A DNA stretch of 64,000 bases from Malacoraja senta (lineage: Eukaryota): assembly GCA_038087875.1 (NCBI GenBank), contig CM075990.1, positions 6,450,001 through 6,514,000 of the forward strand, written 5' to 3'. Positions 15,766-38,424 of the stretch are shown one piece after another; the first letter of the stretch is position 1, and each line of letters starts with the position of its first letter. The translations under genes and the position numbers were made by a program. The notes under the pieces are model-generated. The model was not told the origin of the DNA. It saw only the letters and a list, made by a program, of their open reading frames with translations, and made no database searches.

Positions 15766-15778
15766 CTGTCTATGAATA

Positions 15779-16744: not shown

Positions 16745-17043
16745 TGGCACAGCGGTCGAGTTGCTGTTTCACAGGGCCGGAGACCCAGGCTCGACCCTGA
16801 CTACGGGTGCTGGCAATGCGGCGTTTGGACGTTCTCCATGTGACCGCGTGGGTTTTCTCCGTGTGCTCCAGCTTCCCCCCACTTTTCAAAGACGTGCAGG
16901 TTCATAGTTTAATTGGCTTCTGTCAATTCCCTCTGGTGTGTAGGTTGAGAAAGTGGAATAAAATGGAACTAGTGTTTGGTGATTGATGGTCAGCGTGGAC
17001 CTGGTGGGCTAACGGGCCTGTTTCACGCTGTATCTCTAAATTA
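16745..17043 (+). mobile_element. HE1-type V-SINE
   Basis: A/B boxes, V-domain, tail. Confidence 0.85.
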
Positions 17044-17089
17044 AATATCTGGAATACTCTATCTGGCCTGAACATCTTAAAGTATTAAA

Positions 17090-17184
17090 GATAAACACAA
17101 AATGCAGGAGTACCTCAGCGGGACAGGCAGCATCTCCGGACAGAAGGAAATGTGACGTTTCAGGTCAAGACCCTTCTTCAGACT
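17090..17184 (-). mobile_element. Solo PLE terminal repeat with hammerhead motif
   Basis: gacgtttcaggtcaagacccttcttcagact. Confidence 0.8.
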
Positions 17185-17339
17185 CGCGTTCTAAAAGTAC
17201 CAATTACTTGACTATGTAATATCTCTGGTTTGTAGATTTTATCTCCTCACAAATGAAAAGACGCGATTGACTGTTGGAGTCAAATGTTTCAGTTGTCAGG
17301 TCAAATGCAATTGGGGGGTCTTCTTCGTTTTGGGTCTTC

Positions 17340-17450
17340 TTCGTTTTGTATTGTATGGCTGCAGAAACGACATTTCGTTTGGACCTCAAGGGGTCCAAAT
17401 GACAAATTTGTCCAAAAGACAAATAAATTGAATTGAATTGAATTGAATTC
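17340..17450 (+). mobile_element. LINE-like 3' tail with hairpin and (TTGAA)n terminal repeat
   Basis: Stem-loop tttggacctcaaggggtccaaa followed by aataaa and (ttgaa)n. Family not assigned. Confidence 0.5.
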
Positions 17451-18012
17451 ATGATCCTACTTCACCTCAGTGGAACACCGGTGCCTAGAATTGAGATTCA
17501 GCAATTGTACAGAACATACACATCTTCTTCAGGCTGAGCTGTATGGCTGGCACATCCCTTCTGAGGAGTGGCACCCAGCACCAACCAATACAATGGAAAT
17601 ATAAACACTCACATTGATATAGCCCCTTGCACACCCTGCCTGGACATCCCAGTTGTTTTGCGGTCAGTTTAATGTCACGTGAAACAGTGACAATAAGCTG
17701 AAGGCTCAGCGACCAGTGAAAGAACACGGAGGATCAGGAAGCCAACAAACAGAGGAACACTGATGTCCCGGAGACTTAAAGAAGGGTCTTAACCCAAAAC
17801 ATCACCAATTCCTTCTCTTCAGAGATGCTGCCTGAGTTACTCCAGCATTTCGTTTCTGTCTCAGAGACTTTTCTTTTTGGAGGAACTTCCTAGGATAGAG
17901 AGGAATGGGTATATGGATGGAAGCTGTAACAAGTGCTAGTGCACCAGGTAATAATGCAGGCTTGGAAACACAGCCTGTCGGAGAGGTCATTAAAACAGGT
18001 GAAGGAATTGAG

Positions 18013-18220
18013 TACAAAGTGCTGGAGTAACCCAATGCATCTCTGGAGGATGTGTATAGGTAACATTTCATGTAGGGCCATCTTCAGACTTCGCCACCCT
18101 GAAGAAAGGTCCCGACAGAAACGTTGCCTATCCATGTACTCAAGAAGTGCTGCCTGACCCGCTTAGCCACTCCAGCACTTTGTGTCTGTTTATAATAACC
18201 TGCATCAACAGTTTTTTGTG
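18013..18220. mobile_element. Fold-back PLE terminal repeat (inverted pair)
   Basis: Two arms with ctgaagaaaggtcccgacagaaacgttg at about 18099. Confidence 0.8.
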
Positions 18221-18429
18221 TCGGAAGGAATTGGATATTATTCGATCAAAATACATTGCAAATGTTGCTGAACTATTAGCCTGAATCTGAGCAGTTTGTT
18301 AAGATATTCATTGAAAGGTGCATTTAATACATTAACCTGCAGTTAGTTCTTAAAAACGACAAAGTACATGATGAAAATTGCTGGACATTTAATGAAATAA
18401 TTTTCTGTTTTTGTACAAACTTCTAAAAT

Positions 18430-18800
18430 TTGGAACAAGCTGCCAGAGGAGGTAGTTGAGGCAGGTACTCTAACAGCATTTACGAAACCATTTGATATTT
18501 AAATGCAGAGGAAGGGTTTAGAGCGATATGGGCCAAATGCGGGCAAATGGAATGAGTTTAGATAGAAACAGCGAACATTGGTGCAGGAGAAGGCCAGTCG
18601 GTCCTTCGAGCCATGCAATATGATCATGGCTGATCATCCATGAAAATCAGTACCCTGTTCCTGCTTTCTCTCCAGATCCCTTGATTCCATTAACCCTAAG
18701 AGCTATATCTAACTCTTTGATTTGGTAGTTTAGATGGGGCATCTTGGTCGGCAGGATTATTAGGCCGAAGGGCCTGCTTCTGTACCGTATGACTTTATCA
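18430..18800. mobile_element. CR1 3' fragment (+) with a second CR1 3' fragment (-) nested at about 18560-18720
   Basis: tggaacaagctgccagaggaggtagttgaggcagg..., with ttagat repeated on both sides of the inner reverse fragment. Confidence 0.75.
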
Positions 18801-19225
18801 TTATATTTCCCCTTTAATCATCGGATTTGATGGTGACAATTGCACATTTGCTTTGACTGATGACTGATCCCTCACGTACTTTCCCCCCTCTCTGCTGCCC
18901 ATTAATGAGGGAGGCCCTGCCCTGCATCATTAGCAAGAGGCCCGGAATTCCCTTTTGTTGTTGTTTTACCATCAGTTGCAAACAAACCACAGTTGCCGAG
19001 ATAATTAGACCTGAGCCTGTTTGCCTCCCACCTATTGTCAACAGCAGCAGGTTCATGGACATGAATATAAAGGAATAAATTCTAAACATCCCCACATTAA
19101 TCCCCCTGAATAAATTGCTAGATGCAAGTACATAAATTGTGGTGATCTCATTACACCTTCTTAAAAAGATGTATGCATCTGCTCATTAGATTAATGGTTG
19201 CTTGTCTAATTTCACATGAAGTGCC

Positions 19226-19687
19226 TAGGCTTGGTGATCACTTCGCCGAACACCTCAGCTCGTTTCGCAATAACCAACCTGATCTCCCGGTGGCTCAGCA
19301 CTTCAACACCCCCTCCCATTCCGAATCTGACCTTTCTGTCCTGGGCCTCCTCCATGGCCAGAGTGAGGATCACTGTAAATTGGAGGAGCAGCACCTGATA
19401 TTTCGCTTGGGCAGTTTGCACCCCAGCGGTATGAACATTGACTTCTCTAATTTCAGGCAGTCCTTACTTTCTCCTCCCATTCTCAGCTCTCCCTCAGCCC
19501 TCTGGCTCCACCTCTTCTTTTCTTCTTCCTCCCCCCTCCCCCCTCCACTCTCACATCAGTCTGAAGAAGGGTTTTGACCCAAAACGTTGGCTACTTCCTT
19601 CGCTCCATAGATGCTGCCTCACCCGCTGAGTTTCTCCAGCATTTTTGTCTACCTTCGATTTTCCAGCATCTGTAGTTCCTTCTTAAA
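19226..19687 (+). mobile_element. Penelope-like element 3' end: GIY-YIG endonuclease C-terminus, UTR, hammerhead motif and tail
   Basis: RLGDHFAEHLSSFRNNQPDLPVAQHFNTPSHSESDLSVLGLLHGQSEDHCKLEEQHLIFRLGSLHPSGMNIDFS, then ctgaagaagggttttgacccaaaacgtt at 19561. Confidence 0.92.
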
Positions 19688-19704
19688 GATTCTTGATTAG
19701 AATG

Positions 19705-19910
19705 TGTGTCAGGGGTAAAGGGGAGAAGGCAGGAGAATGGGGTTAGGAGGGAGAGATAGATCAGCCATGATGGAATGGTGGAGTAGATGTGATGGGGCGA
19801 ATGGCCTAATTCTGCTCCCATCACTTATGATATGACCTTATGACCTATGGTCGGTGTGGGAAGTGGGGGCAAAGGACCTATTTCCATGCTGTATGACTCT
19901 AAGACTCCAT
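19705..19910 (+). mobile_element. CR1 3' tail fragments
   Basis: gtcaggggt...gggagaaggcaggagaatgggg...gatcagccatga...ggcgaatggcctaattctgctcc. Confidence 0.75.
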
Positions 19911-20789
19911 AACACCATGGTAGTGTAAAGCTGATGTTTATTTTACTAATAGCCCAGCAATATCAGCTCAAACCCCAGCTGCGAATTTAAATTCATATTC
20001 AAAACTTATCCAGGTTTGAAAACAACTTGTGGTTTTGGAAATCTTAAAAATAACTCCTGCAACTGAATTCTAAATAATTTGAAAGTGTGATTGTCACAAA
20101 CATATTGCAGTAATACATCTTTCTTGTGTTTATTGGTAGCAGAATTACACTCACAGAATAAAGAATATGAATACTTCACAGCTGAAAAAAACATGCCTTA
20201 TCTGTGAGAGTTCTAATTTAATAACAAGTTTGCATTTTTATTCAGTTAAGACATTTGTCAAAGCAAAAGGGGACTGAGCTATCGGAGAATTTAAAAGGCT
20301 GACTGCAACTTGTTTTTGAACAATAAACAATAATGTTCTGGTAAACACCCGTTTAATGTTGATACTCATTTGACAGATATTAAATCAGATACATGAGAAA
20401 AGGGTTGAATTGAATTTAATTTACAGTGAGTATTTGCTGCACAAGGAATTTACATTCATTTACATGTGGAAGGAAGCTGAGTGTTTCACAAAATCAAGAA
20501 AGGATTATTCAGAAAAATACTGTGTTGCCTTTGCAATGGAGTGGACAGCACAGTCATCTTGAAGGTCGCAGGTTATGGGTTTATCCACCCCCTTAAGCAC
20601 AAAAACATAAGCTAATACTTTTGTTTAGGTTTGGGGGTACAGTGAAAAGCTTTGTTTTTGCATCCAGATCAGGTAATACTGCACATTAATACAATCACGG
20701 TAAACTCCAGTACAATAGGGAGAGAAAAGGGGAAGATACAGAGTGTAGAATACAGTTGTAGCGCATCAGTTCCATAGACAAGAAGATAC

Positions 20790-20941
20790 TGTAGACACAA
20801 AAATCTGGAGTCACTCAGCAGGACAGAGACCCGAAATGTCACCCCTCCCTTCCCTTCAACGATGCTGCCTGTCTCGCTGAGTGACTCCAGTTTTTTGTGT
20901 CTTTCCTCGGTTTAAACCAGCATCTGCAGTTCCGTCCTGCA
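20790..20941. mobile_element. Fold-back PLE terminal repeat inserted in a Rex1-type tail
   Basis: Inverted arms. The flanks cagttccatagacaagaag / cagttccacagaaaaaag resemble a TSD. Confidence 0.8.
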
Positions 20942-21877
20942 CAGTTCCACAGAAAAAAGTCCAGTGTCCTCAATGGGGTAGAGGTGAACCGGACAGTATT
21001 CTAGCCTAGGATAGCCCAGCAAGCTGCTTGGGGAATTGGGTGGTACAGTTAGCGCTGTTGCCTCACTGCCTCAGGGATTCAAGAATATTCCCAGCAATAC
21101 AATCCATTGACAACAAAAGCTATCTCACGACTGGAGGGCTGCAGCTCCAGACTCTGCACTATTTGCTATTACTAGCCTTCTTTGGTATGGCTGTGCAATG
21201 GTTAGTGTGCTGCTGGCATGGAGCTTTATGGACCTTTGTTCAATCCTGACCTCTGAGTGGGAGTCTTCCCATTCTCCCTGTGACTGTGTGGTTTTTCTCA
21301 GCATGCTCATGTTTGCTCCCACATCCCAAAAACACACGGATGGATGAGTCAGCACTTAAACAACCTTTTTAATGTGAGTTCATGGCAAATGGCTCAAGAA
21401 GGAGCTGATGGCCAAATGAGGGAGAGAATGTAGGACTGCAGGCAAACAAGGAGCGTTGGAATTGAACTGATGGAAATGCTATGGATGGAGCCAGCACAGA
21501 CCTGATGGGCCAATTGGCCTCCTCTTCTGTGGGAATAAGTAAGACCGCTGCCATTGCTGTTGGTATGTGAGCAAACCAGACAGACTCTTCCTGAATAGCC
21601 ATTGTCGTTAACATGAAAGGGAACGGGGAAATGACTCCCGACAATATTCATTCCCCAATCAATCTCACAAAGGCTGGTTAGCTGAGAATTATTCCATTGC
21701 TGCCTGTTACAGTGTGGAGGGACAACCTGGCTGCTGTGCTTGCTATCCTATTCTGCTTTAGTTCCACCACCCAATTGTCAAGGCTAGAGTTATGTCCACA
21801 TGATCACCTCCCAATAATAAACCATTCTCTCTAATGCACATCTCTCACTTTTTCCTCAAATGTCTTGGCCTAAACAT

Positions 21878-22350
21878 CATAGAGTCATGGAGTCACAGTG
21901 TGATACAGTGTGGAAACAGGCCCTTCGGCCCAACTTGCCCCACCGGCCAACATGTCCCAGCTACATTAGTCCCACCTACCCGTGTTTGGTCCATCTCCCT
22001 GTAAACCTGTCCTATCCATGTACCTGTTTAACTGTTTCTTAAATGTTAAATGAGTCCTTGCCTCAATTACCTCCTCTGGCAGCTTGTTCCATACACCCGC
22101 CACCCTTTGTGTGAAAAGGTTACCCTTCAGACTCCTATTAAATCTTTTCCCCTTCACCTTAAACCTATGTCCTCGGGTCCTCGATTCACCTACTCTGGGG
22201 CAAGAGACTCTGTGCATCTACCTGATCTATTCAACTCATGATTTTATACGCCTCAATAAATCATCCCTGCACTCCAAGGACTAGAGTCCCAGCCTACTCA
22301 ACTTCTCCTTATAGCTCAGACCCTCTAGCTCTGGCAACATCCTTATAAAT
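21878..22350 (-). mobile_element. CR1/HER1 LINE 3' fragment
   Basis: ORF 21966-22217 (VGESRTRGHRFKVKGKRFNRSLKGNLFTQRVAGVWNKLPEEV) is the CR1 ORF2 C-terminus. Confidence 0.9.
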
Positions 22351-23390
22351 GCTGGAGTAACTCAGTGGGTCAGGCACTGGAGGGTATGGATAGGTGACAT
22401 TTCAGCTTGGGATCCTTCTTCAGACTGAAAATTCCGGGATCTGTAGTTCAACCTGTCTCCATTATATCTATGACCTCCAATTTTTCAAATCTCTTCAGAA
22501 ATGAAAAGATGCTGTCTACATCCACCCTGCTTAATGCTTCATAATTTAAAAAGCTATTGAATAATCTGTGTCTTCCCTTCCCTACAGCAAAGAGCCCACC
22601 CTGTTCAGTTTACGGGAATGCAGAAGGCAGGGGCAATCCCAAACTTGAGACTAATTACCAGGAGTTCAACAGGTTTATGTCAAAGCAAGCCATTAACTCA
22701 AGTAGTCCACAATTTATTGCTTGTTTTAAACATTTAATTTATTATTTCAACAATATGTAATCTGATATGATTAGTTGCAAAGCCTTTATGTAATTACCGA
22801 GCTGGGACAGTGTTGGAGGTCTCTGCTATATCAAGGATGCAGAGTGGACAGTTTTATATTTCATTGGGACAAGGCTTTTGAATGCCGCACAACTATTTAA
22901 TTAATTCCACCGGGAATTTTAATGTAAATTGTCAATTGAAACATCAGTTGAGCTTCCCCATTGAAGCCCTGCAGGATATTTTGTGCATGTTCGTTCATTT
23001 TATAATCTGAAGTTAATTTGCTAATCATTTGCAGCATAGTGTGCACCTTTTCTGTATTTATGTACCCAGGGATGGAATGCTTTGGTCAAGTATATCATCT
23101 GCAGATATTTACTCACTGAGACAGATGGTTGGTCTTAGGAACATGAATTGGTTGGTATATTTTGTTTGGAAGTGATATCGAAGATGCAACTCAGATAGTC
23201 CACCATTTGATTGTTCAGAAATGTGGATGGTTTGGAATCTGACTCAATGGTTGATGTTTCCCACATGCGCTCTAAGTTCATCAGGATTCCATTTGCTGTG
23301 ATCATTTTAAATTCCCCTCGCTCCCTTTAAACCCACCTGACTAATGGAAGAATTTATTGTAACATCTAAAAAAATTTTTTTAAAGGCTGT

Positions 23391-23607
23391 ATTCCAAATG
23401 TCCCTACACTGGCATCATCCCCTAACTCTTGCTCCACCAAATTGACGACTGCATCGGGGCTGCCTCCTGCACCCATGCAGAACTCATTGATATCATCAAC
23501 TTTACCATTAACTACAACCTGTCCTCAAATTCACATGGACTGACCGCTGAGTTACTCCAGCACTTTGTGTCTTTTTTTTAAACCAGCATTTGCAGTTCCT
23601 CGTGTCC
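23391..23607 (+). mobile_element. PLE reverse-transcriptase relic joined directly to the terminal repeat
   Basis: ...IDDCIGAASCTHAELIDIINFT...KFTWT (PLE RT catalytic IDD region), followed at 23541 by gaccgctgagttactccagc...tail. Confidence 0.75.
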
Positions 23608-23699
23608 CCATTATATTTTGTTATTTTTCCTAATAACATGCCATAATAGCAGAATCGCCTTTTTGTGAATCTTGCAGGAAGTCATCCTTTACATCTCAG

Positions 23700-24330
23700 G
23701 GTCAGATAGAATATTCCTTTATATTCTTTTCTGCCATAATAGGACATTTCAAATCTTTCCATACTACATTCCATTTATCGTCTTTATCCTCTCAATGTAA
23801 TCGCTATCTGCATCCATTTCCAGATATTTTATATCAGTTACTTCCCTACTCTTTCTGTCATTAGTACATTTAACCACCATGCCTTGGGTTCCTTCATCCA
23901 ATTCACTTTGGTCAATTGTGAAATGGAGACTCTAGTGTTGATCCTTCTGACCTGACTACCAAAAAATACCCACTAATGCAAGCAATCCTCTAATCTCACC
24001 AAAACATTACCTCCTGTACCACAAGGTATGTTTTCTGCAATATCCTTTGACATGACACCTTATGAAATACTCTTGGAAATCTTAATACATCCACAATTCC
24101 CCCCTTAACCAGTGTGCCTTAGTTCTTCAATGAACTCCAATAAAATAGTCAAACATGATTTCCCTTTCGCAAAATTGTGTTGACTTTGGCTGCTTACTTG
24201 AATGTTTCTAAGTGCCTTGCTATAAGATCTTTAATATTAACTTCTAACTTTGGCAATGATAGATGATAAACTGCAGTTTCCTGCTTTCTGTCTCCAACCC
24301 TATTTGAATAAAGGATACATTCACTGGGAT
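23700..24330 (-). mobile_element. Highly decayed CR1 RT relic
   Basis: Motifs such as tagtcaaacatgatttccctttc and ttatgaaatactcttggaaatct resemble the reverse-complemented CR1 RT region. Confidence 0.5.
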
Positions 24331-24596
24331 GACTCAGACATAAGAATCAACTGGTGGGTATGCGGAGTTAGCTGACCGAGAAGGGAGAAGTAACTTGAGG
24401 GTCAAGGGTGTATAATTGTCATACGCATTGACAACAGGACAATGAAATTCCTATTTGGCCGTAAACTCAATACATAGATAAATATAATAATCTAAAATTC
24501 AATAGATTAATAACGGCCAAAAAAACCCAAAGTCAGTCATGCAATGAAAACACAGTCCATAGTTGCTGAGATGAGTGTTGTGTAATCAGGGTGCAT

Positions 24597-24887
24597 GTGG
24601 CACAGCGGTAGAGTTGCTGCTTTCCAGCGCCCGGGTTCGATCCTGACTACCGATGCTGTTTGTAAGGAGTTTGTACGTTCTCCCCGTGAACTGCGTGGGT
24701 ATTCTACGGGTGCTCTGGTTTCCTCCCACACTCCATAGACATACTGGTTTGTAGGTTATTTGGCTTCGGTAAATTGTCCCTATTGTGTGTGTAGGATAGT
24801 GTTAGTGCGCGAGGGTCGCTGGTCGTCACGGATTCGGTGGGCCGAAGGGCCTGTTTCTGTGTTTTTGCTCGAAACTAAACTAAACTA
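24597..24887 (+). mobile_element. HE1-type V-SINE
   Basis: A/B boxes, V-domain, tail. Confidence 0.9.
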
Positions 24888-25494
24888 ATGTTCAAGTGCC
24901 TGATGGCCGCTGGGAAGAAAATACTGTTGAAACTGTCATGGATTCACAGGTAGAAATAATCTGTAGGTTAGACAGCATGTGTGAAGAGAGAGAGTTAATA
25001 TTTCAGGTCAAGGCCCATTCATCAGATCTGCCTTGTTGAGTATTATAAGAATTCTATCCCTTTATTTCGAGTTTACAGCAGCTTCGAAGTATTTTTGCTT
25101 TTCAAAGAAGAAAGTAAAATTCATTGGCAAAAAAATATATGATGGCGTTAGGTAAAAGTTTCAAGTCTCTATTCTTTCTGATCTGGATGCTTGGCGGATT
25201 GAGGAAGGTGGAGTTTGTTCCAAAAGTGGTGTCGCATTTCAAGTTGGATAGGGTCACAATATGTGAAAATAACAACATATGTCATTTGATTTCTTGTTTA
25301 AAAGTGGATGAGGGCTGTTGTAACCACTGACTTTAACTTTCTGCAGATGTGTACAATCTACAGAGGGTGCGTGCAGTCCATTATACAGTTCTTCCCAGCT
25401 GATAATTGTCCCGGAAGAAAGAGATGAATAAACTATTCAATGCAATGCAATGGGATCAAGATTGGCAACTGGATCTGGGGCCACGTATTTCTAA

Positions 25495-25709
25495 AGGGCC
25501 TGTCCCACTTTCACGACCTAATTCACGACATCTGCCGAGTTTGCCCTTGACTCGTACTCGCAGCATGGTCGTAGCAGGTCGTAGCAGGTCGTGATGCTAG
25601 TCGTAGGTACTCGTGGCATCAAGTAGGTCGGGGCGTTTTTCTAGCCTGATGAAAAATGTCCACGAGTAGAAAAGTCCGTGAATTAGGTCGTGAAAGTGGG
25701 ACAGGCCCT
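25495..25709. mobile_element. PIF/Harbinger-type MITE (215 bp)
   Basis: Perfect 33 bp TIR agggcctgtcccactttcacgacctaattcacg. TAA TSD at 25492-25494 and 25710-25712. Confidence 0.9.
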
Positions 25710-26069
25710 TAAATGCAATTGCCATTTTGCTCCTGTTGGTCCACTTTCAATAACTACCTTTTAAAAAGGCTTTTTAAGCAACTATTTTCTCCAACATGTT
25801 GCATTGCCATCAGATTTCCTTCCTTGGTATTTATTTGCAATGAAGCATTTGTCTGGATGTCTTGCCCAAAGTCTGAGATGGAGCCATTGAAAGGAGATGT
25901 GATGTAGGACCTTAAGATCTTGAAAGGCATGAAGAATTGGTTGAATGTGAATAAGATTTGTGCGGGATCTTCGCCTAGAAAAGTACTCAATGTCTTCAAT
26001 GAAATGTCAGAAAATTATAGTTTCTTTAAATAATGTCTTTGAAGTTGGAATCCGTATTATAACAGCAGA

Positions 26070-26330
26070 TTGCACCATGGAAAACATCTTACCCAGATGC
26101 ATCACCGCTTGGTATGGTTAATGGTCTACACAAAACTAAAAAAATCTGCAGCAAGTTGTGGATGCAGCCCAGTCCATCACCTACACCAGCCTCCCCCCAC
26201 CCCCATCATCTCCATCTACACTTCATATTGCCTCGGGAAAGCAGCCAATGTAATCATGGAATGCTCACACCTCGGTCATTCTCATTTCTCCCCTCTCCCA
26301 TCAGGCAGAAGATTCAAACGCTTGAAAGCA
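26070..26330 (+). mobile_element. Rex1/Babar LINE ORF C-terminal relic
   Basis: ISIYTSYCLGKAANVIMECSHLGHSHFSPLPSGRRFKRLK is the Rex1 C-terminal HP.H.LF..LPSGRR motif. Confidence 0.8.
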
Positions 26331-26999
26331 CTTAGTTTAATTTAGTTTATGGTCACATGTACTGAGGTATAGTGTAAAGCTTTTTGTCTACTAACCAGTC
26401 AATAGAAAGACTATGCATGTTTAATATCAAACCATCCACAGTGTATATCCATATGATAAAGGAAATTAGGTTTAGTACTGTCAGATTCAAGGAAAGCTTC
26501 TGCCCTGCCCTCGCGCACTAACACTATCCTACACACGCAATAGGGACAATTTACCGAAGCCAAATAACCTACAAACCTTCTGCCCTGCTGTCTTGAATGG
26601 ACCCTCATATGCTAAGAAAATCTTTCTAATCTTCCAAGCCAGCTTGGCCTCTGCAGTTTAAAAACATATATTTGCCCTTTCTCTCTAGCTGTATCACTAT
26701 ATTGTATATCATGTGTATTTTACCATTTGCACTATCCCTTGTACTCGTGTATGGGTTGGTTACACTCCAGTATGGTATGATATGACAGGAGAGCATGCAA
26801 CACAAAGCTTTTCACTGTATCTGGGTGCACATGACAATAATAAACCAATTGCAAATACCAAAAGAAGGCACAAGTATGGTCCATGAAGTTCTTAATGGAA
26901 AGCCACAGGATGTGGAATAACTCATGTTTTAATATTAAATTAACACTGCACTACTTTCAAGAGAATGGGCTTAGAGAGGATCAGCAAGAAGGAATATGA

Positions 27000-27181
27000 A
27001 GATAGACACAAAAAGCTGGTGTAACTCAGCGGGTCAGATGGTGAGAGTCAGTCTGAAGAAGGGTCTCGACCCGAAACGTCATCTATTCCTTTTCTCCAGA
27101 GATGCTGTCTGACTCACTGAGTTACTCCAACTTTTTGTGTCTATCTTCCATTTAACCCAGCATCTGCAGTTCCTTTCTACA
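27000..27181 (+). mobile_element. PLE terminal repeat with short inverted 5' arm, intact hammerhead motif and 15 bp TSD
   Basis: caagaaggaatatga (26985-26999) / caagacggaatatga (27182-27196). Confidence 0.9.
27053..27080 (+). ncRNA. Minimal type I hammerhead ribozyme motif (PLE-associated), representative copy
   Basis: CUGAAGA + A + stem II GGGU-CUCG-ACCC + GAAA + CG + UC. Palindromic ACGU replaces stem III. Activity not shown. Confidence 0.75.
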
Positions 27182-27974
27182 CAAGACGGAATATGATTCT
27201 GTTTTAGCTCTCTGCTGCCCTGAATCCAGTGCTTTCTTTATCTAGCATTTCTAAGATGGTGCATTGGTTCATACTGTTCTTTGGATGCTCTCGTTATGAG
27301 CCTATTAAATGGCAACTACTTGCAAATTGGTAGGCAGTCGGCTGGGATAATAAAGATTCCTTTACTCTTTTATTACTTAGTTTGTGGTTGCTGCTTGTAA
27401 TCGAAGCTGGTCTATTCAACAGTTTCCTCTCCGAGCAGGCTTCAAGGCTACAGTGTAATTGAGGGTTTGAACTCTAATGTAATTGAAAGGAAAAAAAAGT
27501 AAAAAAGTGGGATTCAATGTGACCTGATCATGGCGATTGCTTTGGAGAACTGAATGCAAAAATAATTGGTGGTCCATCTAACAAGAAGCTTTTCACTGTA
27601 CCTCGGTACATGTGACAATAAACTAAACTGAACTGAACCGAACTGACCTAGGCATGGAAGGAGATTGCAGTTCCTTCCATTCTCCTTACTAATCTCGATG
27701 GAATCAATTGAAAGACAAGGGGGAAAAGATTTCCAGCCAAGCTGTTTAGTGGCGAAACCAAAAAAATGCGTTGTTCTTGGCATCTGTCTCCTTAGTCTGG
27801 TTTCCTGTGCAGAATCTCAATCTATAATGTTATTACAACAAACTGGTGACAAATTAAAGGATCTTTGACATCTTGGTTGGGCCAGTGCGAAGAAGTTATA
27901 TTATTTGTTGTTATTTTACAGCAAGGGCCATTTGGCACAACCAGTCCAAGCTGGCTTGCTTACAAGTAGAATGA

Positions 27975-28200
27975 AAATAGACACAGAATGCTGGAGTAAC
28001 TCAGCAGGTTAGGCAGCACCTCTGGAGAAAGAGAATATGTGACGTTTCGGATCAGAGCCTTTCCTCAGTCTGAAAAAGCGTTCCAGCCCAAAACGTCACC
28101 TAATATTTTTCTCCACGGATGTGGCCTGACCTGCTGAGTTACTCCAGTATTTTGTATCTATCTTCAGTATAAACCAGCATCTGCAGTTCCTTCCTACACA
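27975..28200. mobile_element. Fold-back PLE terminal repeat (inverted pair)
   Basis: Two arms. The left arm lacks the terminal ~35 nt tail present in the right arm. Confidence 0.85.
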
Positions 28201-28673
28201 TTTTGCAAATAGAGTGTATTGACTTGCTGACACTATGAGTGGGAAGAGAGACTTGAATTATTTGGGTTGCTGTATATATTTTAATGAGTAACGTTTTTTT
28301 TAAACTAAAAAAGGCCCAACAGCCCCATTCCTCCACTAATTTCTCGGTAACATTCTCTCCCACTTGCTTATTAACTGGCCCCTGATTATCACTGGCACAA
28401 GGGCTAATTTACAGAAGTCAATTAATCTCGCAACATATGGTCAGGGCATGGGAGGAAACGTTTGTAGCGGTGAGAAGGAGTATGTGTAAATTCCTCACAG
28501 TCAGCACTGGGTCAGGATAGAAACCGGACTGCTGGAACTACAAGGCAGCAAGATCTTATTAACTTATGAAGAAAGAAATTGGAACAAAACACAACTGTAA
28601 ATTCTTAAGAAATAAGGAGCAACATAACTATTGACATAACACAATGGCTCCATGATAGGGTTAGGTTTAAGGA

Positions 28674-28862
28674 TTATACCATTAGAAATGACTTTTCTAC
28701 TTCCCCACTGATTCCAACTTTCCTTCTATCCTTTGTCTCACCAGGAGCAATCAGATTGCCATCCAGGGAGAAACAGGGATCTGATTCCTCCTGGTGAGAC
28801 AAAGGATAGAAGGAAAGTTGGAATCAACGGGGAAGAAGAAGGAGTCATTTCTAATGGTATAA
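28674..28862. repeat. Long inverted repeat / hairpin (arms about 83 bp, loop about 22 nt)
   Basis: 28674-28756 pairs with 28779-28862, including a 39 bp perfect run tgattccaactttccttctatcctttgtctcaccaggag. Confidence 0.9.
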
Positions 28863-29065
28863 CCCTCCTAACAAAACACTTAGAATGTGACAAAAAGTGC
28901 TGGCGTAACTCAGCGGGTGAGGCCGCATCCCTGGAGAACATGGATAGGCGACGTTATGGGTGGTACCCTTCTGCAATCTGGTCTTTTACAGTAAACGAGC
29001 ATCTACATTTCCTTGTTTCTATCCTTGGAACGTGGCCTTGTAATAACCAACACCTTGATACATAA

Positions 29066-29585
29066 AGGCCCTGTCCCACTTAAGCCCCTGTCCCACCTAG
29101 GCAATTTTTTCGGCGACCACAGGCGACTAGGCTGTCGCCACATGGTTCTGCTTGTCGCTGGTAGTCATTGGTTGTCGTAGTTGTGGTCGTAGGTGGACGT
29201 CCTAATGGGTCGCCGGTTGCCGGGAGCTTGACGTCGACTAGGTGGTAGGTTGTCGTAGCTTGTCGTAGACACTGTTGTAGGGGGGGAGATTTGTCGGCAA
29301 CCGGCTACGACTGTGACAGTCGACAAAAAAATTGCCTAAGTGGGACAGGCCCTATTGGCGGTTTATTTCGGCGACTGCCGGTGACTGTCACAGTCGTAGC
29401 ATGTGGTTAAAAAAGTGGCGACTGGACCCCCCTCCACTACGACAATGTCTACGACAAGCTACGACAACCTACCACCTAGTGGATGTCAAGCTACGGCAAG
29501 CTACGACCACACCTATGACAACATACGGCCCCACAGGCGACAATCTACGCCAAACAGTGTCAACCTACGTCCACCCATGACAAGC
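29066..29585. mobile_element. Two nested Harbinger-type MITE copies in opposite orientation (inner copy 29083-29353)
   Basis: The outer TIR aggccctgtcccactta is interrupted by an inner element with TIRs ag..cctgtcccac.taggcaatttttt. 29357-29585 is largely the reverse complement of the inner body. Confidence 0.75.
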
Positions 29586-29671
29586 TCACTCTCCCTCACT
29601 GGTTTCCCATTACCTGACAACTCAGATCAAAATATTCATTCTTGTTTCAAATCCATTCCTGGTCGTTCCCT

Positions 29672-29820
29672 TAGATAGACACAAAAAGCTGGAGTAACTC
29701 AGCGGGACATGCATCATCTCCAGAAAGAAAGAATGGGTGACGTTTCGGATACTCGAGTTACTCCAGCTTTTTGCGTCTATCTTTGGTTTAAACCAGCATC
29801 TGCAGTTCCTTCCTACACAT
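29672..29820. mobile_element. Fold-back PLE terminal-repeat insertion with 13 bp TSD
   Basis: ctggtcgttccct at 29659-29671 and 29821-29833. Confidence 0.9.
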
Positions 29821-30582
29821 CTGGTCGTTCCCTGACCAGACTCATTGAAGCCTACTGTGCTGAGAGAAGGCCATTCAGTCCATTGTCTCCTTGCCAACTA
29901 AATGAAAATTTTACCACCCATGAGGCATCCCTGGAACCAAGGCGATGTCCTTGATATTAAATATCGCTCGTGATATGATTCATGAGTATCATGCTGGATG
30001 CCCATGTTAGTTACCGATCGCAAAGTGCAAATCTTGAACGAAACTGAATGCTTAAATGCAATTGCCGTCTGAGGAATCTACTTGAACAATTGTGTCGGGG
30101 ATCCTGGAAGACTTCTGCATTAGAACATCTCTTCTGCATCCTCGATTGCTCCTGTAGGAACTCTGCCTCAATTACTTGGCACTGTCAAGTGATCATGTAT
30201 GAGCTGGTGGAATGTTACACTCCACGGAGAAGTGTTACTGAGCTAATTGGAGCCCTGCTTGTCATGTCTTTTGCTTTATGAAATGTGAAATTCAACTGAA
30301 CATTGCCAATAATATTGCTGAACAAGAGAATTATATTACGATGCAATATATCTATGGGTATCAATTTTTTTAATACGATTATTTTAGTGCAGTGTGATTG
30401 TTGAGGATTAAGCTATGCTCTTCTTTTATGCTTGGAGAGGGTTATTTGGATGTCGTTTCAATTGCTCAGCATACTATTTTTTAATAATATTTGAATAATA
30501 AATAAATTGATAATATTTTGAAGGTGAAATTGAATGAACCTTCTAATGATGCACATTATATTAGTGTTGGTTAAATCATGTG

Positions 30583-30908
30583 TTTAGTTTTAGTTTAGTT
30601 CAGTATAGAGATGCAGCGCGGAAACAGGCCCTTCGACCCACTGAGTCCGCACTGCCCAGCGATCCCCGCACATTAATACTACCCTACACTAGGGCCAATT
30701 TTTTCATTTATACCAAGCCAATTAACCTACAAACCTGTATGTCTTTGGAATGTGGGAGGAAACCAAAGTTCTTGGAGAAAACGTATGCAGGTCACGGGGA
30801 GAACGTTCAAACTCCGTACAGACAAGCACCCGTAGCCAGGATCGAACCCGAGTCTCTGGCGCTGTTAGAGCTGTAAGGTAGTAACTCTACAGCTGCACCG
30901 CCATGCCT
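30583..30908 (-). mobile_element. HE1-type V-SINE
   Basis: Full reverse copy. Confidence 0.9.
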
Positions 30909-31184
30909 CCCACCGTGTGGATTATCTACCTGGATTATCCTAGCAAGGATTATATTGATGAGGAATACATTGAGGAGGATTACACTGATAAGAATCAGAA
31001 TTGGTATCAAGTTGGGAGCCAGAGATTAAATCTAATGAAATCCTGCATTCAGAGAGGTTTACAAAAGTAAGAAAACTGACAACAAAATATGAGATCGACC
31101 ATCAGGCTTGTCTTTTATAAGGCCATAGCCTAAATGGTTCCTACCTACCAATCACCTCCTATGAAGGGAAAAGAAACCAATTTG

Positions 31185-31422
31185 CTAAAGAAAGAACTGC
31201 AGATGCTGGAAAAATCGAAGGTAGACAAAAGTGCTGGAGAAACTCAGGCAGCATCTATGGAGAGAAGGAATAGGCGACTTTTCGGGACTGAAGTCCGAAG
31301 AAGGGTGTCGACCCGAAACATCGCCAATTCCTTCTTTCCATAGATGCTGCCTCACCTGCTGAGTTTCTCCAGCATTTTGTATCTACCTTCGATTTTACCA
31401 GCATCTGCAGGGTTTTTTTAAA
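31185..31422. mobile_element. Fold-back PLE terminal repeat (second subfamily, matching the 19226-19687 tail)
   Basis: Arms aagaactgcagatgctggaaaaatcgaaggtagac... / ...ctaccttcgattttaccagcatctgcag, with ccgaagaagggtgtcgacccgaaacatc. Confidence 0.85.
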
Positions 31423-32139
31423 CATTCCTTCAGCAAGCCCTGCTCACTCATGTGAGATAAGTATGGTTCTGGGCCTTCTTGTCTCCATTACAGTTAGATT
31501 TGGAGGATCTTAAAGATGACTTGCTGCCTTCAACATTGACACTAACAACACATAGCTTGGCTCTTCCAACACCACTCTAATATCTTCCTGCAGTTAGCCA
31601 GCGAATCTGATGTACAATTTGGACTAGATGCGTGTATCCCACTAAAAAATTGGGGTAACCAAAGTTGCCATCTTTGCCTCTCCTCACAAACTCTGTACCT
31701 TGGAGCTGATATGTCTTGTTACATGCAGACTATTGGCCCAGATAGAACCAGACTGTTCACAAAATTTGTGTTGCATTTAAGCTTGGGTTTCAGATCATCG
31801 CTACCATAAAGACAGTTCTTCAGCTTCCTGATTAATAACATCTGTCTTCCCCACCTCAGCTCATCTGCCAGCTTTGAGGGCTCTCTGCCGTCCTTGGAAG
31901 TCTAGTTCACCATCTGGTATGGACCATAACAATATTTATCTGACAAGTCTGTCTTGCCTCTCGGAGAAACGTCAAGCATATGAAACATAAGTGGCCAATT
32001 TTTGAAATATTCAGCATATGATGTGCGTACCTCCATTGGATCCATGTTCACTCTGGGACCTGCGTAGAAGTCTTCTTATGACTACTGTTTGCAGGGTTAA
32101 ACCTTGGGCACCAGAGATGCCTGTCCTGTAGGCATCAAT

Positions 32140-32637
32140 TTGTAGGAAGGAACTGCAGATGCTGGTTTATACCGAAGTGCTGGAGTAACTCAACAGGTCA
32201 CACAGCACCTCTGGAGAAAAGGAATGGTGATGTTTGGGTTTGAAGAAGGTTCCGCTCCGAAATGGCACCTATTCCTTTTAGTTTAGTTTAGTTTAGAAGT
32301 ACAGCGCGGAAACAGGCCCGTCGCCCCACCGAGCCAGCATCTAACACTATTCCACACACACTAGGGACAATTCACACGTACACCAAGCCAATTAACCTAC
32401 ATACCTGCACGTCTTTGGAGTGTGAGAGGAAGCTGAAGATCTCGGAGAAAAACCCACGCAGGTCACGGGGAGAATGAACAAACTCCGTTCAGACCAGCAC
32501 CCGTAGTCGGGATCGAATCTGGGTCTCCGGCGCTGCAAGCGCTGTAAGGAAGCAACTGTACCGCTGCGCCACTGTGACCACCCTCCAGAGATGCTGCCTG
32601 ACCCGTGGCGTAACTCCAGCACTCTGGGTCTGTCTGA
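32140..32637. mobile_element. Fold-back PLE repeat (10 bp TSD aggcatcaat) split by a V-SINE
   Basis: TSD at 32130-32139 / 32638-32647. The right arm resumes at 32583 after the SINE. Confidence 0.85.
32278..32582 (-). mobile_element. HE1-type V-SINE nested in a PLE repeat
   Basis: Full reverse copy. Confidence 0.9.
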
Positions 32638-33794
32638 AGGCATCAATGTCCATTGACTAGAAGGATCTTTTTTTTTTTTGGCTTGAAATAATATTTTGCA
32701 AATGTTGGTCTGGGTCTGAGGACCAGAGTGTGGAAAGATTGCAATTCCAGGCCAGTTATGCCTAAATGATTGACAATGAGACTGGCTGTTGAGTCAGCCC
32801 TGCAGTGCTTCCTGGCTAATGATGCGCGAGCAAAGCTTTGCAGTCAGCTCTGTTCAATCACCAAAATAACTCACAGCCTCACTGCACATCCGCGCAGAGG
32901 GAAAGCAAGTATATTGATGTGCCTTGGGCACCAGCAATAAATAAAATGTGCAATCAACAAATAGGTTGAATGAATAATCCAACACGTTTGGGCAACGTGA
33001 CAGGTGGTTGTCAACAAGAACTAAACAGATGCAGGAATAAAATTGTGCAAGTGCTACTGCATAATGGAGTATTACCCATTGGAAAATGAGTTGAGCCACA
33101 TCACTGAATTTTTTATTGTATAAATATAGTTTCATTTTTTAACTGACTGAAACAGTAAAGTAGTCAAACTAATTTCCTGCCTGTCATCGTCGTGAAGGTT
33201 CGGCTCATCTGGGAGTCTAACTGAGGCTGCAGCGTGTGATGGGTAACGCAGCCCGCAAAAACAGAGGCTGCCTACGAGCCAGGCTCCTCCATCCCGTCAG
33301 CCGATGAGGAACTTTGCTCTGTGGTATTGGTTGGAGAAACTCCAGGGAATTCAGGGCAAGGTTGCCGAGGGATCCCATGGTCATTGAAGAACATAGAACT
33401 TAGAAATGTACTGCCGAAGGACCTGTGTCCACACTGTATCACTCTATGACCCGAGGTAGTTGAAACAAATACATGGCCCTTCGGCCCACAATGTCTGAGC
33501 CGAACATGATGCCAAGACCATCACTTATCTACCTGCACTTAATCCACTGGGAAGTGGGGAATCTTCCAGCTCAATTAGTGGGAGTTTACTCGGATCTACT
33601 GGACACTGAGAGGTGGAGTCGATAGGGAGGTACGAGTGTGGCCGGGTCAATGCGGAGTATCTGTCCATGAACAGGGGAAGTGGAAGACCTTGCTCTGAAC
33701 TTACTGAGCCTTTTGAAACCATGGACAATCCAATCTTCAACCTCGTCTGCCTTTCTGCCCAATCCTGTTGCATGTTGCAGTGATAAATCTTGTG

Positions 33795-34015
33795 GTGGGC
33801 ATATGGAACGAACTGCCAGAGGAAGTAGTTGAGGCAGATACTATAGCAACATTTAAAAGACATTTGGACAGATACATGGATAGGAAAGGTTTAGAGAGAT
33901 ATTTGCCAAACGAAGACTGGAGGGACTAGCATAGATGGGGCATTTTTGTTGGCATTGCCAAGTTAGACTGAAGGACTGTTTCCATGCTGTATGCCTCTTT
34001 GATCCATGACTCTAT
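33795..34015 (+). mobile_element. CR1 3' fragment
   Basis: tggaacgaactgccagaggaagtagttgaggcag...gaaggactgtttccatgctgtatg. Confidence 0.8.
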
Positions 34016-35294
34016 GAGGAGACTGTGGCCAAATTTATTTGCAAGCCTGATTAAAAACCTAGAATTCTTTCACATGTTGCAAAACTTCTTTTTTTCTACT
34101 GAATAACTTTCATTTGAATAAGATCAGGAACTTTACATTTCTCATCCAGGTTTTCTGTAAATTTGATATGTTTCACGTTATAGAAACATAGAAACATAGA
34201 AAATATGTTATCTGCTCAAAAACCTGAATTGCTTTCTCATTGAACAAATATAAATGACCCAGAACTGTGGAATAGTTGAGGCTTCTTCCGATATCACTTA
34301 CTAGGGCCTGGACCTCTATTGTGGAGTTTGATCCTTAAAATAAAGTTCTTGTCACTTCTCATCCACATTGATGGACTCTACTCCATGAGGTCCCTCAGAG
34401 CTGCTGCCCAAATGCATACTGTCCTGTCCCTGTGCCCACATTAATTTTATCATCTGAGTTCCTGATCCCTTCTGAAGCCTCTTTGGTCCACCATCAATCT
34501 CCCCAAGCATCACCCCCCCCCCTTCACTATTTAGCAGTAACACTTGAGCTTCTCGCATTCAATATGATCATTGCAATCTTCGCCCACAATCTTCTTCCAT
34601 GATCTTCTCTGAAACCTCTGATTTCCATCCTGCAAGACATCTCACTGCCCTTTGATCCACACCCCATTGACGATCATTCCCACTCCCAACCCTCCCATTC
34701 TCCCCAACACATCTCCCCCCAGCACTCTTCCAATGACTTGCACTCTCTTCAGTGGGCAGGGGTTCTGGAGAAAATAAGCATGTGGACAATTCTGCGTCAA
34801 AGCCCTTTCCCACCATAAATGAAGCTCTGAGGTTCATGCACAACCGGGTAATGGGACTCAAACCTAAATGGAGGAGTTCCCCATGTGGCACTGACAAACT
34901 ATACAAAAGTTCCTAGCTCCACTGGAAGAACACAGGAACACAATGTTGGATGTCTGGCCACTGGCCACATGGGCTGGGCGGGTGCTATCATTAACATGCA
35001 ATGAATAGAGCAAGGAGAAGCCAGCAACGTTAAACTCGGCCAACAATATCCTTTTTAGGCTGTTGGTCTAACGATCGTAATTTTCCCTCATTCTCCAGTG
35101 CTGGCTTGATCACTTTCTGGGCAAGGTCCAGGGAAAAAACCTAGCCTCCAGAGTGCCTCTGAACCAGGAGAAGTTATATGTTATGATTTTCCTGCATGGT
35201 GGGCTTGTCTCGGAGTTTGAGGTACATGGGGGTCCATGTGAACAAGCTAAATAGAACACTCTTTAGCACGCAAAACAAAGTCTTTCACTATATC

Positions 35295-35530
35295 ATAGAA
35301 ACATAGAAAATAGGTGCAGGAGTAGGCCATTCGGCCCTTCGAGCCACCACCGCCATTTTCAATATGATCATGGCTGATCATCCACAATCAGTACCCTGTT
35401 CCTGCTTTCTCCCCATATCCCTTGGTTCCATTAGCCCCATGAGCTATATCTAACTTTCTCTTGAATATATCCAGTGAATTGTCCTCCACTTCCTTCTGCG
35501 ACAGAGAATGCCACGGATTCATAACTCTCC
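35295..35530 (-). mobile_element. CR1 3' fragment
   Basis: ORF WHSLSQKEVEDNSLDIFKRKLDIAHGANGTKGYGEKAGTGY. Confidence 0.85.
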
Positions 35531-35932
35531 AGGTGAATCTCGGTACACACAACAATAATAAATCAGTACCAATAATTAGATTCAAATTGGCGGCAATAGG
35601 AGGCAAAGGGTGGTGGTGGATGGATGTTTTTTTTCTGATTGGAAGTCTATGACATCAAACATATATGATATCAAACGTATATAAAATTTACAGAAAATCA
35701 GGATGTAAAAATATAAAGTTCCTGGTCTCATTCACATGAAGGGGTACAGAGAAGATTTACGAGGATGTTGCCAGGACGCGAGGGTGTGAGCTATAATGTG
35801 AATTGTGATGTACCAGGGATTGGTTCAGGGACCGTTATCGTTTGTGATATAAGTTAGCGACTGATGTGAATGTCGGAAGTGTGATCAGTAAGTTTGTGCA
35901 TGACATGAAAATTGGTGGCATTGCAAGGTATG

Positions 35933-36088
35933 GACACAAAAAGCTGGAGTAACTCAGCGGGACAGGCAGCGTCTCTGGAGAGAAGTAATGGGTGACGTTT
36001 CGGGTCGAGGCCCTTCGTGCTGAGTTACTCCAGCTTTTTGTGTCTGTCTTCGGTTTGAACCAGCATCTGCAGTTCCTTCCTACACATG
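35933..36088. mobile_element. Fold-back PLE repeat inserted in a CR1 RT relic (about 35740-36190)
   Basis: Flanks ttgcaaggtatg / ttgcaaggaatg. The host reads KFVHDMKIGG (FADD motif relic). Confidence 0.85.
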
Positions 36089-36199
36089 TTGCAAGGAATG
36101 TTGTTCAAGGTTACTGTCGGATATAGATCAAATAAGTGAGATACCTTTCAATCCTATTGCGATATGATGCATTACCGAAGTTAAATAAAACGTGGATCA

Positions 36200-37255
36200 T
36201 AGAACAGTATAATACAGGAACAGGTTCTTTGGCTCACAAATTTTGTGCCGAATATGATGAAAAATCAAACTAATCCCTTTTGATTGCATGTGATCCATAT
36301 CCCTTAATTCCCTTCATATCCATGTACCCATCAAAAAGCCTCTTATATGCGATAGTTGTGTCTTTCCATCATCCACCCTGGCATCTACCATTCACCATGT
36401 AAAAAACTTGCCCTTTACATTTAAACTTTAAACTTTCTCTCTCTAACCTTCAAGCCATTTGACACTTCCACCCTGGGAGGAAGGTTCTGACTCTCCACCA
36501 CATCAATGCCTCTCATAATTTTATAAACTTCTATCAGGTCTCCTTTTAGCCTCCCAACACTCCAGAGAAAACGAATCTATCCAAACACTACTTATAAGGA
36601 ATATCCTTTCATTCAGGAAGCATCCTAGTAAAATGCAGACACAAGGAACTGCAGAGTAAAGAAGGATCCAACTCCAAATGTTGCCTATCCATGTTCTCCA
36701 GAGATGTTGCCTGAACTGCTGAGTTATTCCAGCAATATGTTTCTTTTTAAGCATTCTAGTGAATCGCTTTTCCATCCTCTCCAAAGCCTCAATATCCTTC
36801 CTGTAATAAGGTAACCAGAACTGCACAGAATCCTCCAAATGCAACCCAAGCAAAGTGTTATAAAGCTGCAATTTGACTTCCTGACTCTTGCACTCAATGT
36901 TCCAACTAGTGAAGGTAAGAAAGAACACCACATGCTTTCTTTGTCACTCTGACTACCTGTGTTGCTACTTACAGTGAGCTGTGGACCTGGACCCCAAGAC
37001 CACTCTGTGCATCAATGCTGTTAAGGAAACTACCGTAAACTGTGTCGTTTCTCCATACATTTAACCTCCCCAAGTGCAACACCTCACTCTTGCCCAGATT
37101 ATACTCCATCTGCCATTTCTCAGCCTATACCTGTAATTATACATTGTGATAGCTCAGGGTCTGCAACCCCACCAATTTTTATGTCATCTGCAAACTTACT
37201 AACCAATCTATCTACATTTTTATCCAAGTGATTTATATATCTCTCAAATAAGAGA
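36200..37255 (-). mobile_element. CR1 LINE ORF2 RT/C-terminal relic
   Basis: YINHLDKNVDRLVSKFADDIKIGGV and VKLQLYNTLLGLHLEDSVQFWLPYYRKDIEALERMEKRFTRML. A small PLE insert lies at about 36637-36740. Confidence 0.85.
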
Positions 37256-37644
37256 GGTTGCGACATTAATCTCCATGAAACATCCCTAGGCACGGTTTGT
37301 GTGGAATTTACACATTTTCCCTGTGACCGTACGGGTTTCCTTTGAGTGATCTGGTTTACTCTCACATCCTAAATATATGTGGGTCTGTAGGTTAATTATG
37401 TTGCCTCTAGTGTGGAGTGAGTGGATGCAAATGTGGGATAACTAGTGGTTGGCATAGACCCTGTGGGACCTCCTCGAATGAAATTCCTCATATGTTGCAA
37501 AACATACTTGGCTAATAAAGTATTATTGTGTTGTATTGTATATTTTCCATGCTGTATACTTAAATGAATCAATTCATATGGCCACTCCACTACCTCCTTT
37601 TTACTTGCTCTTGGGCCTGAGAAACAACGTCCTTAAGAACTCAT

Positions 37645-37950: not shown

Positions 37951-38029
37951 TTACCTGCACACAAACTGCTCTGACTCCTACTCCCTGGTACGAATATGGC
38001 TAGGACATGTACAATAAATGGAAGGTTTC

Positions 38030-38421: not shown

Positions 38422-38424
38422 AAT

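What the first reader, a model, noticed from the sequence alone, without database searches (positions are those of the whole stretch)
27053..27080. Window saturated with minimal hammerhead-ribozyme motifs carried by Penelope-like elements
Seen: the motif CTGAAGA-A-GGGTCTCGACCC-GAAACGTC is perfect at 27053-27080 (+) and 7618-7645 (-). It is near-perfect at 49777, 42707(-), 50582, 40413, 17155(-), 6625(-), 19561, 18099 and 15686, and the host repeat occurs more than 30 times in 64 kb. At 19226-19687 it lies directly downstream of a GIY-YIG endonuclease ORF. Variation tends to hit the stem II loop (CTCG, GTCG, CCTG, CTTA) while GGGT/ACCC is kept. Established: PLE terminal repeats encode minimal type I hammerheads (CUGANGA...GAAA...UH) whose stem III is reduced to a palindrome (here ACGU) and which can cleave as dimers. 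An extra A between A9 and stem II is a tolerated variant. Inference: if this region is transcribed, the RNA carries many latent self-cleavage modules on both strands that could pair in cis. Caveat: stem I is only 2-4 bp in most copies.
Basis: partly seen in the sequence, partly recalled or inferred. Interest (0 to 1): 0.75.

Follow-up and report, generated by a model that had tools for sequence, protein, structure and literature searches.

The report
Decayed Penelope ends carrying minimal hammerheads
These are dozens of short, mostly decayed end-pieces of a Penelope-type jumping gene in what is likely a skate; they carry an already published kind of tiny, predicted self-cutting RNA motif that is complete in only four copies here, so they are likely ordinary transposon debris rather than a working set of RNA cutters.

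Summary
The motif is real: 16 matches against 0 in shuffles, inside a 90-135 nt repeat with 58 segments (46 insertions, 8.7% of the window). The repeat follows remnants of a Penelope-like element (PLE) ORF whose closest named relatives are skate and ray proteins. It fits the published minimal hammerhead (min-HHR) of metazoan PLE pseudo-LTRs.

The idea of many latent self-cleaving modules is not supported. Only 4 of 33 motif-spanning copies are complete. Damage is CpG decay: lethal G12>A (16 of 46) is not rarer than tolerated C11.1>U (11 of 46). Rare mutations hit core and flank equally (3.8% vs 3.5%), and covariation does not exceed shuffles. Stem I is 0-2 bp in three of the four complete copies. 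Transcription was not shown.

The copies have PLE insertion anatomy: target duplications, an optional 3' tail, and 11 head-to-head pairs. 31 of 58 segments begin within -4..+1 of the ribozyme core, so they likely copy uncleaved RNA. This scan found the same pairing several times on other shark- and skate-like DNA. Verdict: a new member of a known kind, low interest.

The parts
27053..27080 (+). Complete min-HHR motif (core, bulged A, 4-bp stem II, ACGU palindrome, GUC); stem I 2 bp
26996..27187 (.). One insertion: inverted partial arm (repeat positions 57-98, minus strand), short spacer, stub from -5 through the 3' tail; 15-bp target duplication at 26985-26999 / 27182-27196
7618..7645 (-). Complete motif in a stub (7512-7647) with tail; stem I 0 bp because the copy starts at about C3; probable ~11-bp target duplication
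6625..6652 (-). Complete motif (G-U at 10.1-11.1), one arm of head-to-head pair 6531-6765 with an 18-bp target duplication; stem I 6 bp with itself, 8 bp with the copy at 7645
17154..17181 (-). Complete motif (G-U at 10.1-11.1), stem I 2 bp; an orthologous contig of another organism (run X8) reaches into it
19227..19691 (+). 5'-truncated PLE end: C-terminal half of the endonuclease (19227-19457), ~100-nt pyrimidine-rich UTR, motif at 19561 with G12>A, tail
38862..39441 (-). PLE endonuclease remnant with the CC..H..H residues and degenerate GIY/YIG, internal inversion, UTR, and repeat lacking the hammerhead
50292..50705 (+). Last ~30 codons of the PLE ORF, ~190-nt UTR, motif at 50582 with G12>A
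23405..23603 (+). PLE reverse-transcriptase fragment (with a stop) joined to repeat positions 56-125
12144..12267 (+). Stand-alone stub starting at -1 of the core, flanked by a perfect 16-bp target duplication; G12>A
1096..63879 (.). Whole family: 58 segments, 46 insertions, 5574 nt, 11 head-to-head pairs; mean divergence from the window's consensus 16% (47 segments)

Best explanation
The motif is the minimal hammerhead sequence of the terminal repeat of a Penelope-like retrotransposon, and the copies in this window are likely neutral, decaying by-products of its reverse transcription. In active source elements the motif likely cleaved at GUC only slowly, as a dimer and with help from the element's own protein (inferred from published relatives). 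The element's protein likely started reverse transcription at two internal sites about 90 and 135 nt past the motif, and most cDNAs ended just 5' of the core, giving 90-135 nt stubs and head-to-head pairs copied from uncleaved RNA (inferred from copy ends). After insertion, CpG deamination destroyed G12 or the palindrome in most copies (shown).
For: Shown: the motif matches the published min-HHR consensus. It lies 100-190 nt behind PLE ORF ends at 19457 and 50387. The endonuclease remnant matches skate/ray proteins at 72-87% identity that carry RT, a CX4CxxC linker and a weak Pfam GIY-YIG hit. 3' ends fall at positions 74-100 (22 of 58) and >115 (28 of 58; the model over-extends some; a separate tail score finds the tail in 22 of 58). 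The tail sits on exactly one arm in 9 of 11 head-to-head pairs (p~0.03), as described for PLEs. Target duplications score in 13 of 46 insertions (about 10 convincing) vs 12 of 400 random. Neutral decay: G12>A 16 vs C11.1>U 11 of 46 (p=0.44); rare-allele mismatches 13/340 in the core vs 73/2108 downstream (p=0.75); covariation 0.181 vs 0.205 shuffled. Only 1 of 58 segments starts at the predicted cut. The majority letters in four public runs give the intact motif (loose ends), as expected if source elements kept it. Published: PLE min-HHRs cleave weakly and only as dimers; an anole PLE starts RT at two internal sites, uses unprocessed RNA and its HHR needs the protein.
Against: Raw identity of the non-CpG core (255/270, 94%) exceeds the downstream flank (897/1014, 88%, p=0.003; 812/891, p=0.10 without subfamily columns), A13-A15.1 are kept in 133/137, and 14 of 33 cores are intact vs a crude expectation of 7.5-10.7. 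I attribute this to selection on source elements, copy-age spread and alignment ascertainment, but a few selected copies are not excluded. No full-length element is in the window, so ORF start, promoter and RT phylogeny were not seen. No cleavage or RT experiment exists for this family.
Confidence: 0.88

Rival explanations
1. The dispersed copies form a working set of latent ribozymes: host transcripts crossing the region are cleaved when two copies dimerise in cis.
For: High density (0.72 insertions/kb); three complete copies on the minus strand (6652, 7645, 17181); raw core identity above the flank; decayed palindromes ACAU and AUGU could still pair with each other (from sequence).
Against: 4 of 33 complete; lethal mutations not depleted; no covariation; stem I 0-2 bp in three of four; dimer folds at -2 to -20 kcal/mol vs -24 to -32 for competing folds, and inverted arms bury the motif in long hairpins. 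Published min-HHR activity is low even in designed dimers.
Confidence: 0.05
2. The stubs are a separate non-autonomous short element (SINE- or retrozyme-like) amplified from its own master copies by PLE proteins, not truncated products of full-length transcripts.
For: Stubs outnumber ORF-linked ends about 10 to 1 in the window (46 insertions, 4 ORF remnants), have sharp 5' ends and their own target duplications; animal retrozymes are reported as PLE derivatives (abstract and part 1).
Against: No tandem arrays apart from one partial repeat at 49777/49816; copies are not cut-site-to-cut-site units; stubs share subfamily letters with ORF-linked ends (19561 with 31295; 50582 with seven stubs).
Confidence: 0.2
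3. The motif is kept in source elements for a reason other than cleavage, such as an internal promoter or a protein-binding site, and only resembles a hammerhead.
For: The family's own stem I is 2 bp and stem II is disfavoured in the consensus fold (P=0.12); copies come from uncleaved RNA; the TCAGT just upstream is initiator-like, as reported for other PLEs; HHR mutants do not impair insertion in vitro.
Against: All 11 core positions, the bulged base, G10.1-C11.1 and the palindrome agree with a motif that recurs with covarying stems across metazoan PLEs, and C3/G8 mutants abolish and rescue cleavage in the anole element.
Confidence: 0.1

Closest known systems
Minimal hammerheads (min-HHR) of metazoan PLE pseudo-LTRs (Cervera and De la Pena 2014, PMC4209133; main text parts 1-2 of 4 and supplement file 2 parts 1-2 of 3 read; supplement file 1 not available)
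   Same: CUGANGA-H, G10.1-C11.1, GAAA-C-G-U-H with no helix III, pyrimidine-rich 5' flank, location behind the ORF, mostly solo copies, close pairs on opposite strands, thousands of copies (about 4,000 in coelacanth, 9,000 in Xenopus).
   Different: No cartilaginous fish appears in the alignment or table that I read. Helices I (2 bp) and II (4 bp) are at the short end of the published range (Culex and D. virilis also have 2 bp). Local density, 0.7 per kb, is far higher.
Poseidon element of Anolis carolinensis, PAc (Frangieh et al. 2024, PMC11167929; parts 1-2 of 4 read)
   Same: Hammerhead in the pLTR, two 3' end classes defining an optional tail, copies made from uncleaved RNA.
   Different: Different clade (the relatives here have the CX2-5CxxC linker absent from Poseidon); PAc was tested in vitro, this family has not been; the ORF start here is unknown.
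EN+ PLEs of the Neptune/Nematis type (Craig et al. 2021, PMC8557442; Arkhipova et al. 2013, PMC3846280; passages read)
   Same: C-terminal GIY-YIG endonuclease with CCHH, 5' truncation, head-to-head inverted pLTRs, tail on one end, target duplications.
   Different: Only fragments here; clade rests on the linker in close relatives, not on an RT tree.
Non-LTR retrozymes of animals (bioRxiv 10.64898/2026.07.22.740005; abstract, part 1 of 5 and passages read)
   Same: Type I hammerhead, PLE-related, reported in one chondrichthyan genome.
   Different: Retrozymes are tandem arrays with a hammerhead in each unit; these copies are dispersed solo stubs and inverted pairs.

Membership tests
PLE min-HHR | Core CUGANGA...GAAA...UH with closing G10.1-C11.1 and a bulged base after A9 | tested here: met
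   Family majority sequence and 4 complete copies against the published consensus; 14 of 33 copies keep the core
PLE min-HHR | No helix III; palindromic 15.1-16.1 stretch | tested here: met
   ACGU in the majority sequence; CG kept in 17 of 47 segments
PLE min-HHR | Helix I closing the junction | tested here: inconclusive
   2 bp in the family, 0/2/2/6 bp in the complete copies; published range starts at 2 bp
PLE min-HHR | Compensatory changes in stems | tested here: not met
   Within this window's 33 copies covariation is not above shuffles (435 of 500 reach it); expected for neutral copies of one family; not tested across families
PLE min-HHR | Located in the terminal repeat behind a PLE ORF | tested here: met
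   19561 and 50582 lie 101 and 192 nt behind ORF ends
PLE min-HHR | Self-cleavage as a dimer or with protein help | not testable with these tools
   Needs a cleavage assay; folding predicts the active form is disfavoured
EN+ Penelope-like element | C-terminal GIY-YIG endonuclease with CCHH | tested here: met
   39091-39441(-) aligns at 57-75% to skate/ray proteins that hit Pfam GIY-YIG below the curated cut-off (E 5e-4 to 1e-3); the window's piece alone has no Pfam hit
EN+ Penelope-like element | RT in the same ORF | tested here: inconclusive
   Only a 38-codon broken RT piece at 23405-23518 joined to the repeat; RT and EN are contiguous in relatives P0006, P0007, P0010
EN+ Penelope-like element | Optional 3' tail, head-to-head inverted copies, target duplications | tested here: met
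Neptune clade | CX2-5CxxC linker before the endonuclease | tested here: inconclusive
   Present in the closest relatives (P0001, P0006, P0007) but cut off in the window; shared with Nematis; no RT tree built
Non-LTR retrozyme | Tandem units each with a complete hammerhead | tested here: not met
   Dispersed stubs; only one partial tandem at 49777/49816

The most novel reading that the evidence does not exclude
The stubs are a DNA record of the PLE cycle: the transcript starts at the initiator-like TCAGT right at the hammerhead, the protein primes at two internal sites of that leader, and a head-to-head pair is one event in which both cut DNA strands are primed, one at each site, and the two cDNAs join at their 5' ends. 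That would explain why solo min-HHRs flood genomes uncleaved and why the tail sits on one arm only. Support: 31 of 58 segments begin at -4..+1, tail on one arm in 9 of 11 pairs, 5 of 11 pairs inside one target duplication. Earlier notes of this scan proposed the leader-copy part; a splice acceptor at the same place or foldback priming remain alternatives.
Probability: 0.4. Interest if true: 0.4.

Novelty: new member of a known kind. Interest (0 to 1): 0.15.

Why it matters
It extends a published pairing (PLE terminal repeat plus minimal hammerhead) to a very abundant skate family, about 9% of this window. It is useful for repeat annotation and as a caution: motif hits here are mostly fossils. 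The copy ends could help map where PLE transcripts start and how inverted insertions form, which is still open.

Tried and rejected
Rfam scan of the whole window: no hammerhead family among 11 weak matches at E<=5; the models have a helix III, so this says little. Host gene: Pfam on 10 ORFs gave only two sub-threshold hits, an Atlas look-up of the 140-aa ORF at 16232-16651 gave nothing, a homologue search of a candidate exon at 56601-56789 gave nothing, and 52 mechanically predicted exons were not convincing; no host gene was identified, and most candidates were not searched. Expression: no RNA holder listed for 10001-20000; two runs guessed to be RNA covered only repeat bins of 17000-19720, which is no evidence either way. 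One of two read-laying runs returned nothing, so 27053 and 7645 were not examined in public runs. Metagenome scan for the downstream part of the repeat: 0 matches. No whole genome was held, so no genome-wide counts; summed contig depth over the motif is some 10^5 times unique depth in run X6, which the tool says is no copy number. A type-III-like hammerhead from copies 7645 and 6652 (stem I 8 bp, stem III 4 bp, ~950-nt loop) has predicted pairing probability 0.007: set aside. A spliced form lengthening stem I, as in D. virilis: no shared upstream exon among the copies and no such joint among the 15 of 1754 shown: unsupported. Lunse et al. (dimer cleavage) was not held; cited only through a review.

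Full report
Observation. The 28-nt motif is perfect at 27053-27080(+) and 7618-7645(-), with 16 matches at up to 3 mismatches and none in 100 shuffles. A descriptor that does not use the family sequence finds 6 loci, 4 with the ACGU palindrome, against 0.17 and 0.035 per shuffle. A profile built from window copies finds 58 segments, 29 on each strand, merging into 46 insertions and 5574 nt. Mean divergence from the window's majority sequence is 16% over 47 segments.

Origin. Four PLE ORF remnants lie in the window: 19227-19457(+), 39091-39441(-), 50292-50387(+) and an RT piece at 23405-23518(+). Each is followed by part of the repeat, and at 19561 and 50582 the motif comes 101 and 192 nt after the ORF end. 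The longest remnant matches 15 of 62 candidate proteins; the best three are named from skates (72-87% identity), the next from rays and a shark. These relatives carry RT, a CX4CxxC linker and a sub-threshold Pfam GIY-YIG hit, which points to the Neptune (or Nematis) type. The piece at 19227 lacks the GIY and YIG motifs themselves.

Match to the known motif. Cervera and De la Pena (PMC4209133; main text parts 1-2 of 4, supplement file 2 parts 1-2 of 3) define a minimal hammerhead in PLE pseudo-LTRs with a bulged base after A9, G10.1-C11.1 and a palindromic 15.2-16.2 pair. They report thousands of mostly solo copies per genome, close pairs on opposite strands, no monomer cleavage and weak dimer cleavage. 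The family here fits that consensus, with helices I (2 bp) and II (4 bp) at the short end. I found no shark, skate or ray entry in the searchable supplement (file 1 could not be searched). Four searches combining hammerhead or Penelope with shark, skate or Chondrichthyes terms listed no paper on this family; a 2026 preprint reports tandem retrozymes in one chondrichthyan. Subscription papers and Repbase are not covered.

Are the copies functional? Of 33 segments spanning the motif, 14 keep the core (one of them is truncated at H17 in my count's favour neither way), 6 keep core and stem II, and 4 also keep the palindrome: 6652, 7645, 17181 (minus) and 27053 (plus). The three CpGs of the motif are the hot spots: CG survives in 18 of 40 (loop), 17 of 46 (C11.1-G12) and 17 of 47 (15.2-16.2). 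At C11.1-G12 the two outcomes differ in cost, since G12>A removes a catalytic base (established knowledge) and C11.1>U leaves a G-U pair. The lethal change is not rarer (16 vs 11, p=0.44). Rare-allele mismatches are 13/340 in the core and 73/2108 downstream (p=0.75). Covariation is below the shuffled mean. Against this reading, raw non-CpG core identity is higher than downstream (94% vs 88%, p=0.003; 91%, p=0.10 without subfamily columns), and intact cores exceed a crude expectation (14 vs 7.5-10.7). At least three subfamilies differ downstream but share the core, and four public runs give the intact motif as majority letters. I infer selection on source elements, not on copies. Folding puts the dimeric hammerhead 10-30 kcal/mol above competing folds, and inverted arms pull 27053 and 6652 into long hairpins. 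No host gene or transcript was found, but the tests were weak.

How the copies arose. 3' ends fall in two classes, near position 90 and near 133; the extra tail scores in 22 of 58 segments at a threshold that I chose. This matches the PLE tail (passages), which in the anole element marks two internal RT start sites. Eleven insertions are head-to-head pairs; nine have the tail on exactly one arm, one on both, one on neither (p~0.03). Five pairs lie within one target duplication, as does the 27053 insertion with 15 bp (it is one of the five). Duplications score in 13 of 46 insertions, about 10 convincing, vs 3% of random pairs. 31 of 58 segments start at -4..+1 relative to C3 and one starts at the predicted cut. 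The model reaches only 8 nt upstream, so about six copies with a longer UTR are counted in that peak; upstream flanks otherwise share no homology except inverted arms. In public runs the motif bin is 12-48 times deeper than the UTR bin just upstream, and joints cluster at that boundary, though UTR divergence could add to this. So most copies were made from RNA that still held the whole core, as in the anole system, where unprocessed RNA is the main substrate and the hammerhead cuts only with the protein. Contigs of another organism reach into the copies at 17181 and 18099, so these insertions likely predate that split.

Mechanism and verdict. Shown: motif, PLE linkage, copy anatomy, CpG decay without selection. 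Inferred: slow, dimer- or protein-assisted cleavage in source elements; internal priming at two sites; termination at the RNA's 5' end near the initiator-like TCAGT, which is also acceptor-like; priming of both target strands for inverted pairs. I had reached the leader-copy idea from the copy ends before reading earlier notes; these notes describe the same pairing and similar ideas in other shark- and skate-like genomes and are not independent evidence. This is a new member of a known kind and mostly fossil; interest 0.15.

Noticed in passing
window 6625-6660 and 7610-7645 (minus strand): The 8 nt upstream of the complete copy at 6652 are the exact complement of the 8 nt after the cut site of the complete copy at 7645, 993 nt away on the same strand. 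Together they could form a type-III-like hammerhead; predicted probability 0.007.
   Followed up: partly
window 2599-2698 (minus): One copy begins at repeat position 29-30, the predicted 3' product of cleavage (1 of 58; may be chance).
   Followed up: partly
window 40393-40412: The first seven bases of the stub are repeated in tandem before the motif, suggesting template jumps at the RNA's 5' end.
   Followed up: no
window 32237-32638: One arm of an inverted pair is split by a ~300-bp repeat (32276-32631), so that repeat inserted later.
   Followed up: no
window 4418-4723, 14365-14691, 24593-24888, 54646-54957 and others: A second family of ~300 bp with up to ~19 overlapping self-matches; looks like a SINE (label recalled, not tested).
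   Followed up: no
window 10300-11570: GC- and CpG-rich stretch with an inverted repeat at 10957-11127 and short internal repeats; looks like nested mobile elements rather than a promoter island.
   Followed up: no
window 28670-28866, 29208-29508, 48309-48526, 60300-60493: Long single-copy hairpins (self-matching inverted segments) outside or beside the family.
   Followed up: no
repeat positions 33-52, e.g. window 27085-27104: A pyrimidine tract, CAG and ATG follow the motif in most copies: a possible splice acceptor or ORF start; the ATG frame closes after 17 codons in the majority sequence (read by eye).
   Followed up: no
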